64,000 bases of DNA from Chloroflexota bacterium (GCA_965221905.1 OZ244922.1:2912001-2976000); one strand, 5' to 3'. Counted from the first letter of the stretch, positions 26,398-59,121 are shown. Notes: generated by a model from the sequence alone, not told the origin. Program-made: numbers and translations.

Positions 26398-26495
26398 GAT
26401 AAGCCCGTCAGCTCTTCAACTTCTAGAACTCATCTCATAAAGACATAGCTCTGCGCAGACCTGCCCTTCGACAGGCTCAGAAACTGTCTTGGGTG

Positions 26496-27449
<954 letters not shown>

Positions 27450-27464
27450 CTATGGCTGGCGCTC

Positions 27465-27616
27465 CCATGCAGTCCCTGCCTTACGGATACGGACTTCATG
27501 TCCCGGTAACTGTTCGGGCTCTGGGGGAGCTCGGCAGGTGTGGCGACCACTCTGAGCCACGGTCTGCCAGACCTAGGACGAACCGGTCTGCCACGCCTGC
27601 TCCCATTCTATCTCCC
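27465..27616 (-). ncRNA. Predicted IS110 bridge RNA
   Basis: Two stem/internal-loop modules carrying GTTCGTCCT (27575-83), GGCTCAG (27552-58), ACAGTTAC (27506-13) and GTAAG (27480-84), which match the target and donor arms; ends approximate. Confidence 0.82.
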
Positions 27617-27654
27617 TTTTCCAAGATATAAGGGCGAACGGGAAAGTGAAAAAC

Positions 27655-27689
27655 CCGTTTCGTGCTTCGACAAGCTCAGCACGAAACGG
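27655..27689. repeat. REP-like palindrome (TTCGACAAGCTCAG family)
   Basis: CCGTTTCGTGCTTCGACAAGCTCAGCACGAAACGG. Confidence 0.8.
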
Positions 27690-27791
27690 CATGTCGAATC
27701 TATTTATGAGATAGCTTCTAGTGAACCGCAAAACTCCCCCGACGACGGGAAGCGGGCGAAACGCGGCGCAGTGTCACGTTGCGAATAGCTG

Positions 27792-29559: not shown

Positions 29560-29594
29560 GTCCTTCGGCCCTGCGACGCGCTCAGGACGAACGG
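29560..29594. repeat. Degenerate REP-like unit of the IS110-targeted family
   Basis: TCCTTCGGCCCTGCGACGCGCTCAGGACGAACGG; minus strand reads GTTCGTCCTGAGC. Confidence 0.6.
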
Positions 29595-56695: not shown

Positions 56696-56797
56696 CCGTT
56701 CGCCCTGAGCCTGTCGAAGGGTGAATCCTTGCTTGAGAACATACGCGGTGCATACGTCCCACCCGTTCATGCTTCGACAAGCTCAGCACGAACGGGT
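56696..56797. repeat. Inverted pair of TTCGACA.GCTCAG REP-like units, including an unoccupied IS110 target
   Basis: CCGTTCGCCCTGAGCCTGTCGAAGGG (56696-56721) and ACCCGTTCATGCTTCGACAAGCTCAGCACGAACGGGT (56761-56797). Confidence 0.82.
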
Positions 56798-56841: not shown

Positions 56842-59121
56842 CTAGCTATTCCGCGGCTCCCAGTTCAGGTGCTTATCCAGAAATGGGAACGTCCCCGTGC
56901 CTTCGATCATGTGGCCGCCGTCGAAGTAGTAGATTTCGGCGCGGTCGGGGATTTTCAGGTCGGCGTAGCGGCGCTGGACTCTGGCATATTCGTGGGCGCA
57001 CCATTCATCCGACGCCACGGCGTCGCGGTGGCCGCGCTCGACCATGAACGGGCGCGGGGCCATGAGATAGGCCATCTCGGCGTAGTTGAAGGTCTGTCCC
57101 AGGTCGAATTCCTGCATTTCCCACTCGTGATTGAACATATAGCCCGAGAAGTAGTCGGTGCTGGCGCACTTGCGCGCCCACTCGTTGAAGTCGCCCGCGC
57201 AGATCGAAAGCGCGTACTGTGTCAGCACCGTCGGGATGCGCATCGCCGCCTTGCCGCCATAGGACAACCCGTAGAAGCCGATACGGTCCGAGTCAACGTA
57301 TGGCAGGGTTGAAAGCCAGCGCAGCATCTGCTCGTGCTGCGCGATGGCGAAGGAAAAGAGCGTCCAGCCTAGCGGATTCGCCTTGCGCTGGAGCGTGCGG
57401 AATTCGTGGTAGCCGATGTAGGGATTCTGCGGCGCGTATGTGATGTAGCCGCGCTCGGCCAGCCGCGCGGCAAAGGCATTATACGGGCCTTCCCCTTCCG
57501 CAATCACGTCCTCCGGCCGGCCCTCGAGACCATGTTGACAGACCACCACCGGCCGCTGCTCTCCCGGCGCAATGTCTTTGGGCACCAGCAAGATGCCGTG
57601 GTTGAACACGTCGGGCAGCACGTCCAGCGTCACTTCGTGGCCGGTCCAGGCCTCGCTATCGCCGAACGGACGGCTGCGCAGATTGAACGGCAGGCTGGGA
57701 TCGGGACAGCGTCCGATCAACCCTTCCCAGAAGCGTTTTCTATAAGCGGCCGCGGATTGCTCCCAGGATTCAAGCGAAGAGGTATCCGCCTCCGACCAGA
57801 AGTCCTCGCGAGTGCGCCACGCCAACTCTAGGCATTCCTGGACGTGCGTCACGATCTGGTTGAACTGTCGCTGCATACGAGCGGATGGGACGAAGGCGCC
57901 GCGCGCGTCGCGTGGTGATGTGGCCGGAGCCGCGCCGCGCGATTCTACACCCAAGCCTTGCAGCAACGCCGTTAGAGCGGCATCCGAGCCCGGTCCGGGA
58001 TCTGTAGCAGAGGGTCCCACGAGCACGAGACAGTCCGCGGCGTCGTGCGATGCGTAAGCCGGTAGAGCGCGGGCAACTTCCGCCTGAACTTCCTCTAGCG
58101 GCGCGGGCTCGATCTTTCCTGGAGCGCCAACACGGCCGCGCACACGTTCTAGATTGCTTATGGGCGGCAAGCCGCTGATGGTAGGCGCAGGCGTCGTCTC
58201 GACGATCAAGGGACGCGGCGCAATCATGCTCGCGAGCTCAGCATCGCTGAAGCCGCGCAGGAGCCGCCAGACGTTGCGATAAATCGGCTCTTGCCACAAT
58301 TGGCGCCGGTTACGGAAGTAGCCGCTTACACCAACGCCGGCGATGCGCTCGTCCAGCGCGCCGCTGTAGAGCGCCAAGAGCCCGCCTTCACCGTAGCCAA
58401 ATACGCCCACCGGCACGTCTTCCGGTGCGTCCTGAGCCAAAAAGAAATCTACCAGCGCCAAGATCTTCTGTGCTTCATAGCCAATTACGTGCCGACCCAT
58501 CTCGAAGGCCATGCGGTAGATGTATTCACGATGAGGCTGGTCTGTCATGCGGATAGCCGGATTCCCGGACCACGTGTGCTCACGATCAATGAGCACCGGC
58601 ACCACCACCTGACAGCCCAGTTCCACCAATCGCCGCGCGAACTGCTGCTCAGGTTTCAGGCCGGGTGCAATTCCGGCGAGCATTTCCGGCGACCAGTCGG
58701 CATCCGGCAACGCAATTACATGCGCGCTGGGCTTCTGCTTGGGCCGCAGCAGCAGGCCCTCGCCTTCTACGCCATCCAGCACCGGCCAGCGAATCGCATG
58801 AACGTCATAGCTTGGCGTAGCAGCGACACGGAAGGGGTCTCGAGTTGAGCTCACGAACTCCAACGCCGACACCGGCTTGCGCTCGTCTATCGCGCCGACG
58901 ATGCGTGCGAATTCTTGGCGCTTCGCGGCAACTGCGGCCTCTGCGGAGTCACCCGCCGCAGGCAGTGACTGCAGTGCCGTCTCAGCGGCCTCGTCAGCGG
59001 CATCGAGTTCGCGGTCCAAGTAGCGATGGATGCCGGCAATCATCAGTGCGGCCACGTCGCCTTCCACGGTGAGCGGCGCCGAATCAGGCAAACGGGAGGT
59101 TTCGCGATCGAGTTGACCCAT
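56842..59121 (-). CDS. Tandem alpha/beta-hydrolase (dienelactone hydrolase/acetylxylan esterase-like)
   Basis: C-domain VVCQHG, GLSYGG nucleophile elbow, APRP, GGH; N-domain elbow reads GYGEGG. Confidence 0.8.
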   Translation of the reverse strand: MGQLDRETSRLPDSAPLTVEGDVAALMIAGIHRYLDRELDAADEAAETALQSLPAAGDSAEAAVAAKRQEFARIVGAIDERKPVSALEFVSSTRDPFRVAATPSYDVHAIRWPVLDGVEGEGLLLRPKQKPSAHVIALPDADWSPEMLAGIAPGLKPEQQFARRLVELGCQVVVPVLIDREHTWSGNPAIRMTDQPHREYIYRMAFEMGRHVIGYEAQKILALVDFFLAQDAPEDVPVGVFGYGEGGLLALYSGALDERIAGVGVSGYFRNRRQLWQEPIYRNVWRLLRGFSDAELASMIAPRPLIVETTPAPTISGLPPISNLERVRGRVGAPGKIEPAPLEEVQAEVARALPAYASHDAADCLVLVGPSATDPGPGSDAALTALLQGLGVESRGAAPATSPRDARGAFVPSARMQRQFNQIVTHVQECLELAWRTREDFWSEADTSSLESWEQSAAAYRKRFWEGLIGRCPDPSLPFNLRSRPFGDSEAWTGHEVTLDVLPDVFNHGILLVPKDIAPGEQRPVVVCQHGLEGRPEDVIAEGEGPYNAFAARLAERGYITYAPQNPYIGYHEFRTLQRKANPLGWTLFSFAIAQHEQMLRWLSTLPYVDSDRIGFYGLSYGGKAAMRIPTVLTQYALSICAGDFNEWARKCASTDYFSGYMFNHEWEMQEFDLGQTFNYAEMAYLMAPRPFMVERGHRDAVASDEWCAHEYARVQRRYADLKIPDRAEIYYFDGGHMIEGTGTFPFLDKHLNWEPRNS

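What the first reader, a model, noticed from the sequence alone, without database searches (positions are those of the whole stretch)
27465..27630. Readable bridge RNA in the IS110 non-coding end, programmed against a REP-like repeat
Seen (minus strand): the restored target is GTTCGCC-CT-GAGCC and the circle junction (donor) is ACAGTTT-CT-TATAT. The first stem-loop (GGGAGC/GCTCCC and CAGGCGTGGC/GCCACACCTG, capped by a GGTCT/AGACC hairpin) has an internal loop with GTTCGTCCT (27575-83; 8/9 to left target+core, the difference being a U:G wobble) and GGCTCAG (27552-58; exact reverse complement of CTGAGCC). The second module, capped by a GGAC/GTCC hairpin, carries ACAGTTAC (27506-13; 7/8 to left donor ACAGTTTC) and GTAAG (27480-84; pairs with CTTAT with one G:T wobble). 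Established: this LTG-RTG-LDG-RDG order and the CT core are the architecture of the IS621 bridge RNA. Inference: an intact, compact (311 aa) RNA-guided recombinase ortholog with a different natural target. The system class is known; this ortholog may not be characterised.
Basis: partly seen in the sequence, partly recalled or inferred. Interest (0 to 1): 0.88.

Follow-up and report, generated by a model that had tools for sequence, protein, structure and literature searches.

The report
IS110 element with readable bridge RNA
This is an intact, recently active IS110-family insertion sequence whose non-coding left end encodes an IS621-type bridge RNA aimed at a repeat that occurs about a hundred times in the host genome; the system class is already known, so it is a well-documented new example and not a new mechanism.

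Summary
Window 26479-27630 (minus strand) is a 1152-bp IS110-group element. It encodes a 311-aa recombinase (PF01548 + PF02371) that keeps the IS621 catalytic residues, and it has a 199-nt left end and a 15-nt right end.

The left end folds into two stem/internal-loop modules. The target loop carries GTTCGTCCT and GGCTCAG, which match the flanks GTTCG(T/C)C-CT-GAGCC at all 6 genomic copies; 4 of the 6 match 9/9 + 7/7. The target is a hairpin repeat with 103 empty sites in the genome.

In seven further lineages the same loop positions change together with the flanks: six differ from this window, and L012 matches this window's target as well as its own (two are left side only). In a model-fitted alignment 24 of 31 stem pairs show compensatory changes.

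Three finer IS621 features are also present: the handshake nucleotides, the discontiguous right donor guide, and a promoter split across the circle junction (TTGACA-17-TATCTT).

No RNA, circle or activity data could be obtained.

Verdict: a genuine bridge RNA system, a new uncharacterised member of a known kind, and not surprising to a specialist. Side note: Rfam's sX15 family appears to model the antisense strand of such bridge RNAs.

The parts
26479..27630 (-). Whole IS110-group element, 1152 bp counting one copy of the CT core. There are no terminal inverted repeats.
   Evidence: Six copies in the genome share exactly this span, with at most 1 difference. The flanks diverge outside it.
27633..27639 (-). 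Left target (LT) GTTCGCC in the flank. It is GTTCGTC at 4 of the 6 copies.
27631..27632 (-). Left copy of the CT core
   Evidence: CT is the only sequence shared by both junctions
27623..27628 (-). TATCTT, the -10 half of the promoter that forms only across the circle junction
   Evidence: TTGACA, 17 nt, TATCTT once the right end is joined to the left end. Four further representatives have a close variant of the -35 at the same geometry, three have TTGACA itself, and two do not fit. No sigma-70-like site is found in the resident linear form.
27525..27604 (-). Target-binding loop module: an outer stem, a bulged A, the stem GACC/GGTC, an internal loop and the cap hairpin at 27561-27573
27575..27583 (-). 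Left target guide (LTG) GUUCGUCCU. It is identical to LT + core, so it pairs with the bottom strand.
   Evidence: 9/9 at 4 of 6 copies and 8/9 (U:G) at 2 of 6. It changes with the flank in L008, L009, L010, L011, L047, L040 and the Acidobacteria group.
27552..27558 (-). Right target guide (RTG) GGCUCAG, the reverse complement of CT + GAGCC
   Evidence: 7/7 at 6 of 6 copies. None of the 42 empty GAGCT-type sites is occupied.
27550..27551 (-). Handshake guide of the target loop (AG). It can pair with donor positions 7 and 6 (T, T) after strand exchange, and it cannot pair with target position 7 (C).
   Evidence: Read. The rule comes from Hiraizumi 2024, section 11. In the other lineages this nucleotide is C where donor position 7 is G.
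27474..27518 (-). Donor-binding loop module: the stem CCC/GGG, an internal loop and the cap hairpin at 27490-27505
27505..27513 (-). Left donor guide (LDG) ACAGUUACC, compared with the right end + core ACAGTTT-CT
   Evidence: 7/9. The relatives score 7-8/9 and track their own right ends (ACGGTTG, ACAGTCG, ACAGCCG).
27480..27488 (-). Right donor guide (RDG) AU-CC-GUAAG. Nine RNA bases pair discontiguously with the seven donor bases CTTATAT (one G:T).
   Evidence: Read. The 9-on-7 discontiguous pattern is described for IS621. GUAAG changes to GCAAG where the left end is TGTAT instead of TATAT.
27478..27479 (-). Handshake guide of the donor loop (GC). The G can pair with target position 7 (C).
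26496..27431 (-). Recombinase gene, 311 aa. D8, E52, D94, D97 and S232-G233 align with IS621 D11, E60, D102, D105 and S241-G242.
26494..26499 (-). TTGACA, the -35 half of the junction promoter. It overlaps the stop codon and ends 13 nt before the right terminus.
26481..26487 (-). Left donor (LD) ACAGTTT, the right terminus of the element
26479..26480 (-). Right copy of the CT core
26474..26478 (-). Right target (RT) GAGCC in the flank, the start of the repeat's loop

Best explanation
This is a functional IS110-group insertion sequence that works like IS621.

Shown from sequence and comparison:
- The element is 1152 bp and has no inverted ends. A CT core lies at both junctions.
- It has a 199-nt left end and a 15-nt right end.
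- Its DEDD/Ser recombinase has all catalytic residues.
- Its left end forms two conserved stem/internal-loop modules.
- The loop bases match the insertion site GTTCG(U/C)C-CT-GAGCC and the element's own ends.

Inferred by analogy with IS621:
- The element excises as a circle. Joining the right end to the left end creates the promoter TTGACA-17-TATCTT.
- That promoter transcribes a bridge RNA of roughly 150 nt, from about 27616 to about 27470.
- A recombinase tetramer holds this RNA.
[quoted passage not shown] The donor loop pairs with the circle junction ACAGTTT-CT-TATAT.
- S232 cuts next to CT. The strands are exchanged with help from the handshake bases (A27551 with donor T7, G27479 with target C7), and the element is inserted.

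The element has recently multiplied in this genome.
For: Protein:
- PF01548 (76 bits) and PF02371 (70 bits) are both found.
- The protein aligns at full length to the IS621 and ISCro4 chains, with the catalytic residues in register.

Copies:
- There are 6 of 6 copies of 1150 nt with at most 1 difference, each in a different flank and each at the same repeat.
- The closest related genome shows one full-length match.
- The locus is empty in two related genomes.

Target choice:
- There are 103 empty GTTCG[CT]CCTGAGC[CT] sites.
- The class that matches both guides perfectly holds 4 occupied and 10 empty sites. All other classes hold 2 occupied and 93 empty sites (Fisher one-sided p = 0.0023).
- There are 0 insertions among the 42 GAGCT sites (p = 0.049).

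Guides covary with flanks:
- L008: GTTCGCCCT with flank GTTCGCC.
- L009: TATTCCCCT/GCAGGAG with GATTCCC-CT-CCTGC.
- L010: TGCCATCCT/CCGGTAG with ATGCATC-CT-ACCGC.
- L011: ATCGTGCCT/CACGGAG with TCGGTGC-CT-CCGTG.
- Acidobacteria: GTTCATCCT/CGCTCAG with TGTCATC-CT-GAGCG. The variant CGTTCAG sits at CTGAACG in L016. The other two carriers of this variant sit elsewhere: L015 at CTGAGCG, and L020 at CTGAACC (6 of 7).
- L047: 9/9 on the left side.
- L040: GTTCATTCT with GTCATT-CT.
- In the 7 x 7 cross table, each element's own target scores highest in its row (9-12 of 12 non-core bases). There is one tie: L012 scores 10 both against its own target and against this window's. The L010 row used an off-position 7-mer for its right guide; the structural 7-mer CCGGTAG gives the same own-target score.

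Structure, on the model-fitted alignment A4:
- 95% of cells are paired, 24 of 31 pairs have compensatory changes, 0 of 500 shuffles reach this, and slid controls give 29-45%.
- On the 7 rows not used to build the model, 93.5% are paired and 23 of 31 pairs are compensatory.
- G:U pairs favour the minus strand as the RNA strand.

Promoter:
- The junction gives TTGACA-17-TATCTT.
- Of the other 9 representatives examined, 3 have TTGACA and 4 a close variant (TTGACT twice, TTGAAA, TTGACC) at the same spacing. L009 (CACAAA) and L015 (TGACAA, out of register) do not.
- No promoter-like site is found in the linear form.
Against: There is no direct evidence of the RNA, of a circle junction or of recombination.

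- The donor guides are imperfect. The LDG matches 7/9 (positions 7 and 9 are mismatched). The RDG needs a 2-nt skip and one G:T pair.
- The second handshake base of the donor loop (C) does not pair with target position 6.
- The folding energy of the left end is not remarkable (z = -1.76).
- Alignment A4 was fitted to the structure I proposed. It included the two training rows and one antisense self-hit of the window, which I removed only in my own recount.
- The right ends of the single-copy relatives L009, L010 and L011 were placed using a conserved terminal motif, not by comparing copies.
- The site-class statistics rest on only six insertions.
- A predicted 5' stem-loop, present in IS621 and in most relatives here, is missing or minimal in this element.
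Confidence: 0.93

Rival explanations
1. The element is a dead relic. The architecture is that of a bridge RNA system, but the recombinase or the RNA no longer works and the copies were spread by other means such as duplication.
For: No activity data exist. The window's copy has a private base change at 27498 in the donor-loop cap. The donor guides are imperfect.
Against: Six copies differ by at most one base and lie in six unrelated flanks, always at the same 14-bp site and with CT on both sides. The reading frame is intact with all five catalytic residues. The closest relative shows one full-length match against six here.
Confidence: 0.04
2. The left end is only a 5' untranslated regulatory structure of the transposase mRNA. 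Its likeness to the target is chance, or a captured piece of the repeat.
For: The non-coding ends of IS110 elements were long thought to regulate expression (Durrant 2024, Main section). The folding z-score is weak.
Against: The right guide is the reverse complement of the flank, not a copy of it, and is separated from the left guide by a hairpin. So this is not a captured repeat. Both motifs together occurred in 0 of 200,000 shuffles. The same loop positions change with unrelated targets in other lineages.
Confidence: 0.01
3. The functional RNA here is an sX15-like small RNA made from the plus strand, antisense to the region.
For: Rfam RF02234 (sX15) matches 27454-27609 on the plus strand at 45.6 bits, E 5.9e-6. 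In Xanthomonas, sX15 is a detected transcript (Schmidtke 2011, passages read).
Against: The score is below the family's gathering threshold of 55, and many pairs are flagged non-canonical in that alignment. No promoter-like site lies on either strand of the linear element. The junction promoter reads the minus strand. G:U pairs in the stems fit the minus strand. An antisense RNA could exist in addition to the bridge RNA without replacing it.
Confidence: 0.02

Closest known systems
IS621 (Escherichia coli) bridge recombinase and bridge RNA (Durrant et al. 2024, PMC11208160; Hiraizumi et al. 2024, PMC11208158)
   Same: - The same two Pfam domains and the same catalytic residues.
- A CT core.
- The RNA is encoded in the long left end.
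- The target loop comes first and the donor loop second.
- The LTG pairs with the bottom strand and the RTG with the top strand.
- A discontiguous RDG and handshake bases at position 7.
- A promoter split across the circle junction.
- A REP-type target.
   Different: - The protein is a distant relative (E 2.4e-42, not a close ortholog) and is 311 aa against 326 aa.
- The natural RTG is 7 nt. Wild-type IS621 uses 4 (Durrant, section 10 passage).
- The predicted 5' stem-loop is absent or minimal.
- The target sequence and the host phylum (Chloroflexota, from the record titles) differ.
ISCro4 / IS622 (Citrobacter rodentium; PDB 9t56; Perry et al. preprint 10.1101/2025.05.14.653916, passages read)
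   Same: It is the best solved-structure match (E 1.6e-44, residues 4-305), with the same architecture.
   Different: The relationship is again distant. ISCro4 was chosen for its activity in human cells, and nothing is known about activity for this ortholog.
ISPpu10 (Pseudomonas putida; preprint 10.64898/2026.03.19.712850, abstract and section 6 read)
   Same: - A bridge RNA without the 5' stem-loop.
- A strict preference for REP hairpin targets.
- Tolerated wobble pairs between guide and target.
   Different: ISPpu10 is reported to need a hairpin in the target DNA in addition to base pairing. Whether the hairpin of the repeat matters here was not tested. In this element the core lies at the junction between the stem and the loop of the repeat.
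Rfam RF02234 sX15 / asX7 of Xanthomonas plasmid pXCV183 (Schmidtke et al. 2011, PMC3300014)
   Same: My model of this window's bridge RNA matches that locus at 58.3 bits, E 1.4e-10. It matches on the strand of asX7, just upstream of a truncated IS110-type reading frame.
   Different: sX15 itself is the opposite strand. It was described as a small RNA of unknown function and not as part of a transposon.

Membership tests
IS110 family, IS110 group (bridge recombinase systems) | [quoted passage not shown] | tested here: met
   PF01548 scores 76.4 bits over residues 5-147. D8, E52, D94 and D97 align with IS621 D11, E60, D102 and D105.
IS110 family, IS110 group (bridge recombinase systems) | C-terminal Tnp domain (PF02371) with the conserved catalytic serine | tested here: met
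   PF02371 scores 70.4 bits over residues 188-270. S232-G233 align with IS621 S241-G242.
IS110 family, IS110 group (bridge recombinase systems) | No terminal inverted repeats; a short core dinucleotide at both junctions; site-specific insertion | tested here: met
   CT lies at both junctions and 6 of 6 copies sit at one 14-bp site. No inverted repeat joins the two termini.
IS110 family, IS110 group (bridge recombinase systems) | Left non-coding end much longer than the right end, with the RNA encoded in the left end (the IS1111 group is the reverse) | tested here: met
   The left end is 199 nt (27432-27630) and the right end is 15 nt (26481-26495). The criterion comes from Durrant, section 12.
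IS621-type bridge RNA | Two stem-loops with internal loops, conserved across orthologs | tested here: met
   24 of 31 pairs have compensatory changes and 95% of cells are paired, against 29-45% when the partners are slid. The value is 93.5% on the 7 rows outside the training set. Caveat: the alignment was fitted to the model.
IS621-type bridge RNA | The first loop pairs with the target: the 5' side with the bottom strand (8-9 nt) and the 3' side with the top strand (4-7 nt), both including the core | tested here: met
   9/9 or 8/9 for the left side and 7/7 for the right side at the six copies. Covariation with the flanks is seen in other lineages.
IS621-type bridge RNA | The second loop pairs with the donor (the circle junction) in the same way; the RDG is discontiguous, 9 nt on 7 | tested here: met
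   The LDG matches 7/9. The RDG AU-CC-GUAAG lies on CTTATAT with one G:T pair. The relatives covary (ACGGTTG, ACAGTCG, ACAGCCG; GUAAG/GCAAG/ACAAG). The match is weaker than for the target loop.
IS621-type bridge RNA | Handshake guides: the base after each core-binding AG pairs with position 7 of the non-cognate DNA | tested here: met
   - Target loop: A with donor T7 here and in L008, and C with donor G7 in L009, L010, L011 and the Acidobacteria group.
- Donor loop: G with target C7 here and in L009, L010 and the Acidobacteria group. L011 does not fit (A against C).

These were read.
IS621-type bridge RNA | [quoted passage not shown] | tested here: inconclusive
   The sequence fits: TTGACA-17-TATCTT. 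Of the other 9 representatives, 3 have TTGACA and 4 a close variant at the same spacing, and 2 do not fit. No circle or transcription start was observed.
IS621-type bridge RNA | The RNA is expressed, binds the recombinase and is required for recombination | not testable with these tools
   This needs RNA-seq or RACE, binding assays and recombination assays.

The most novel reading that the evidence does not exclude
This ortholog is a naturally streamlined bridge system. It has a 311-aa recombinase, a bridge RNA of about 150 nt with no 5' stem-loop, and full-length 9 + 7 nt target guides. Its left guide has been retuned in nature by a single base: U in this genome and C in the 82%-identical element L008.

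Insertions in this genome favour the minority repeat variant that matches the guide perfectly (4 of 14 such sites occupied, against 2 of 95 others). That would be a small natural record of guide reprogramming and of mismatch cost in vivo.
Probability: 0.35. Interest if true: 0.4.

Novelty: new member of a known kind. Interest (0 to 1): 0.3.

Why it matters
It adds a cleanly delimited, apparently active bridge recombinase from Chloroflexota. Its donor, target, guides, handshake bases and junction promoter can all be read from the sequence, so it could go straight into a plasmid recombination assay.

The six insertions and 103 empty sites give a small natural measure of how guide mismatches affect site choice.

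It does not change what is known about the mechanism. Thousands of such RNAs were already predicted in 2024.

The side observation may be of more practical use to annotators: an Rfam small-RNA family (sX15) appears to be the antisense strand of IS110 bridge RNAs.

Tried and rejected
- **Rfam.** No family matched the sense strand. The only notable hit was sX15 on the opposite strand, below its threshold.
- **RNAalifold on plain MAFFT alignments.** The stems of distant lineages were out of register, and only 18 pairs were predicted at -5.2 kcal/mol. I replaced this with a covariance model.
- **Public reads.** Only assembled contigs were available.
  - In the two RNA-library runs X18 and X19 (one study), the contigs lay on parts of the recombinase gene (26495-26833 and 26996-27391) and not on 27432-27630.
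  - No contig joined right end to left end as a circle. One low-depth contig in X5 (depth 3.59) joined 26480 to 27682. That is not the precise empty site, and I attribute it to another copy of the repeat.
  - DNA run X2 had one contig spanning 26465-27633 at about five times the depth of its flanks, as expected for a collapsed multi-copy element.
- **Accession AM039951** was not in the plasmid collection. NC_007507 was.
- **Pfam on the 98-aa annotated frame beside the Xanthomonas locus** found nothing.
- **BLAST of the two halves of the 147-bp insertion that carries the target.** Only 4 related copies of one half and none of the other were found, so it is not a large family.
- **Not done:** percent identity to IS621 (the chain is not held as a protein id), structure prediction and complex prediction. 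I judged none of them necessary.

Full report
**What is there**

On the minus strand, window 26479-27630 is a 1152-bp element. It carries one gene (26496-27431, 311 aa), a 199-nt non-coding left end and a 15-nt right end. The junctions read GTTCGCC-CT-TATAT... and ...ACAGTTT-CT-GAGCC. CT is therefore the only sequence shared by both sides, and there are no inverted ends.

**The protein**

- Pfam finds DEDD_Tnp_IS110 (76.4 bits, residues 5-147) and Transposase_20 (70.4 bits, residues 188-270).
- Against solved structures, the only two hits are the bridge recombinases ISCro4 (9t56, E 1.6e-44) and IS621 (8wt6, E 2.4e-42). Both align over residues 4-305.
- The IS621 chain in that entry runs two residues ahead of the published numbering. 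Counting along the printed alignment, D8, E52, D94, D97 and S232-G233 stand opposite D11, E60, D102, D105 and S241-G242.
- These are the residues that Hiraizumi et al. showed to form the composite active site and to be essential (PMC11208158, passages and sections 7 and 11 read).

**Copies and target**

The host genome (3.52 Mb, one contig) holds six copies.
- Five are identical. The window's copy differs at one base (27498), in the loop of the donor-module hairpin. The same difference shows in two DNA runs.
- The six copies lie in six unrelated neighbourhoods, but always at CCGTTCG(C/T)C-CT-GAGCCTGTCGAAGG.
- This is a repeat that folds as a hairpin: a 13-bp stem at -19.8 kcal/mol for one empty copy.
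- The pattern GTTCG[CT]CCTGAGC[CT] has 103 empty instances: 10 of type T..C, 51 of C..C, 7 of T..T and 35 of C..T.

The insertions are not spread evenly over these classes.
- Four are in T..C, the class that matches both guides perfectly. Two are in C..C and none in the 42 ..GAGCT sites.
- Fisher one-sided tests give 0.0023 for the perfect class against the rest, 0.049 for GAGCC against GAGCT, and 0.015 for T against C within GAGCC.
- With six events this is suggestive, not strong.

**The RNA**

Read 5' to 3' on the minus strand, the left end contains two modules.
- Module 1 (27604-27525) has an outer stem, a bulged A, the stem GACC/GGTC, an internal loop and the cap hairpin GGTCT/AGACC. The 5' side of its internal loop carries GUUCGUCCU. 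The 3' side carries GGCUCAG.
- Module 2 (27518-27474) has a CCC/GGG stem and a GGAC/GUCC cap. The 5' side of its loop carries ACAGUUACC. The 3' side carries AU-CC-GUAAG.

This is the layout that Durrant et al. define for IS621.
[quoted passage not shown] The core is included in all four pairings.
- The right donor guide pairs nine RNA bases discontiguously with seven donor bases (PMC11208160, sections 4-7 and 12 read).

Applied to this element:
- LTG against LT + core matches 9/9 at four copies and 8/9 (U:G) at two.
- RTG against CT + RT matches 7/7 at all six.
- LDG against the right end + core matches 7/9.
- RDG pairs with CTTATAT using a 2-nt skip and one G:T.
- The two target motifs never occurred together in 200,000 shuffles of the left end.

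**Comparison with relatives**

A scan of one genome per species returned 43 loci: a 99% copy (L007) and an 82% relative (L008) in Chloroflexota MAGs, and more distant ones at 56% (L009), 53% (L010), 44% (L011) and 34-41% for most of the rest (many Acidobacteriaceae copies).

The left ends are fixed by the sharp loss of similarity among many copies and by the conserved T(G/A)TAT terminus. The right ends of the Acidobacteria elements are fixed by comparing copies within genomes. Those of L009-L011 rest on the conserved terminal motif.

At the same loop positions, the guides differ and follow the flanks:
- L008: GTTCGCCCT at GTTCGCC.
- L009: TATTCCCCT/GCAGGAG at GATTCCC-CT-CCTGC.
- L010: TGCCATCCT/CCGGTAG at ATGCATC-CT-ACCGC.
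- L011: ATCGTGCCT/CACGGAG at TCGGTGC-CT-CCGTG.
- Acidobacteria: GTTCATCCT/CGCTCAG at TGTCATC-CT-GAGCG. Of the three elements that carry the variant CGTTCAG, L016 sits at CTGAACG, L020 at CTGAACC (6 of 7) and L015 at CTGAGCG.
- L047: the left flank matches its loop 9/9.
- L040: both flank and guide have T where the other Acidobacteria elements have C.

In a 7 x 7 table of guides against targets, the own target scores highest in each row, with one tie. The Acidobacteria guide fits this window's target as well as its own, because the two repeats are alike. The scan picked an off-position 7-mer for the L010 right guide. The 7-mer at the structural position scores the same against its own target.

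The donor guides track the termini in the same way (ACGGTTG, ACAGTCG, ACAGCCG; GUAAG with TATAT, GCAAG or ACAAG with TGTAT).

The handshake rule of Hiraizumi et al. also holds at position 7.
- The base after the target loop's AG is A where the donor ends in T (this element and L008). It is C where the donor ends in G (all the others).
- The base after the donor loop's AG is G opposite target C7. L011 is the exception.

**Structure test**

Plain alignments did not bring distant stems into register. I therefore built a covariance model from the window, L007 and L008 with the structure above and searched 27 sources with it.

There were ten matches, including L009, L010, L011, L047, L040, L044 and L013. 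One was a partial antisense self-match of the window.
- On that alignment, 95.0% of cells pair and 24 of 31 pairs carry changes on both sides. None of 500 shuffles reach this, and sliding the partners gives 29-45%.
- After dropping the antisense row and the two training rows, the seven remaining sequences pair at 93.5%, with 23 of 31 compensatory pairs. Slid controls give 27-45%.
- The alignment leans towards the model's structure by construction.
- Six of nine single-sequence folds recover the first module without any constraint.

**Promoter**

Joining the right end to the left end places TTGACA (26499-26494, overlapping the stop codon) 17 nt from TATCTT (27628-27623).
- Of the other 9 representatives examined, 3 have TTGACA and 4 a close variant (TTGACT twice, TTGAAA, TTGACC) at the same spacing. 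L009 and L015 do not.
- The resident linear element has no promoter-like site on either strand.
- This fits the published model that the circle switches the RNA on. It remains inferred here.
- A start about 7 nt after the -10 would leave only about 12 nt before module 1. The 5' stem-loop of IS621 therefore seems to be missing. ISPpu10 is a reported precedent (preprint 10.64898/2026.03.19.712850, abstract and section 6 read).

**Recent activity**

- The orthologous locus between mutM and its upstream gene is continuous in two related genomes, with no element there.
- The closest relative shows one full-length match, against six here.

**What could not be shown**

There is no evidence for the RNA, the circle or catalysis (see Tried and rejected). 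The supplementary tables of the bridge-RNA papers were closed, so this protein may already be listed among predicted orthologs. Its 90% cluster has 13 members and none is named. In the Perry et al. preprint, 'Chloroflex' does not occur in the main text.

**Verdict**

The class has been known since 2024, and Durrant et al. already predicted bridge RNAs in 85.7% of catalogued IS110 elements. This is a new, uncharacterised member and not a new kind. Interest 0.3.

**Side finding**

The only Rfam match is sX15 on the opposite strand. My model of this bridge RNA matches the type locus of sX15 on Xanthomonas plasmid pXCV183 at 58.3 bits. The match lies on the strand of the complementary transcript asX7 and just upstream of a truncated IS110-type frame. 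The transcript coordinates come from Schmidtke 2011. Two literature searches found no paper linking sX15 or asX7 to bridge RNAs.

Noticed in passing
window 27454-27609 (+); L050 1895-2032 (-) = NC_007507 116394-116531: Rfam RF02234 (sX15, a Xanthomonas small RNA) matches the antisense strand of this bridge RNA (45.6 bits, below its threshold).

Conversely, my bridge-RNA model hits the sX15 type locus on pXCV183 at 58.3 bits, E 1.4e-10. The hit is on the strand of the complementary transcript asX7, whose 5' end (116528) lies 3 nt inside the start of the match, beside the first stem. A truncated IS110-type frame (MNGIGIDV...) follows.

sX15 therefore looks like an antisense transcript over an IS110 bridge RNA, and asX7 like its target-loop half. 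Schmidtke 2011 reports 10 homologs in Stenotrophomonas maltophilia K279a, which fits a multi-copy element. No paper in the library makes this link.
   Followed up: partly
window 26423-26446 and 27698-27721: The element is nested in a 147-bp insertion that is absent from the orthologous locus of two related genomes. The insertion is bounded by 24-nt imperfect inverted repeats (79%) and a CTTCTAG duplication. It carries two of the hairpin repeats, one of them split by the IS and one at 27655-27689. It looks like a small MITE-like carrier of the target repeat, and it is low copy (about 4 related copies of one half).
   Followed up: partly
window 27498: The window's copy has a private single-base difference from the other five genomic copies and from L007. 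It lies in the loop of the donor-module cap hairpin. Contigs of DNA runs X2 and X5 carry the other base.
   Followed up: yes
window 56698-56711 (+), 29579-29592 (-), 58425-58438 (+): These are unoccupied copies of the target in the same window: one exact GTTCGCCCTGAGCC and two with 2 mismatches. They are potential landing sites.
   Followed up: no
genome G000:C1 about 2566061-2566450: A tandem array of about 15 units of a 26-nt period (GTTCGCCCTGAGCTTGTCGAAGGGCC). It consists of the target repeat in its GAGCT form, which no copy of the IS occupies. G001 has a similar long array of 37-nt spacing near 3096714-3098237.
   Followed up: no
L012-L048 (Acidobacteriaceae MAGs): The distant Acidobacteria relatives target a very similar repeat (TGTCATC-CT-GAGCG). 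Their left guide GTTCATCCT fits this window's target (8/9) better than their own (7/9). They also carry an extra 5' stem-loop that this element lacks.
   Followed up: partly
L021 (1339-bp element): One Acidobacteria copy has a left end in which much of the target loop's 3' side and the donor module appear to be deleted or rearranged, although the element is longer overall. It is possibly a defective copy.
   Followed up: no
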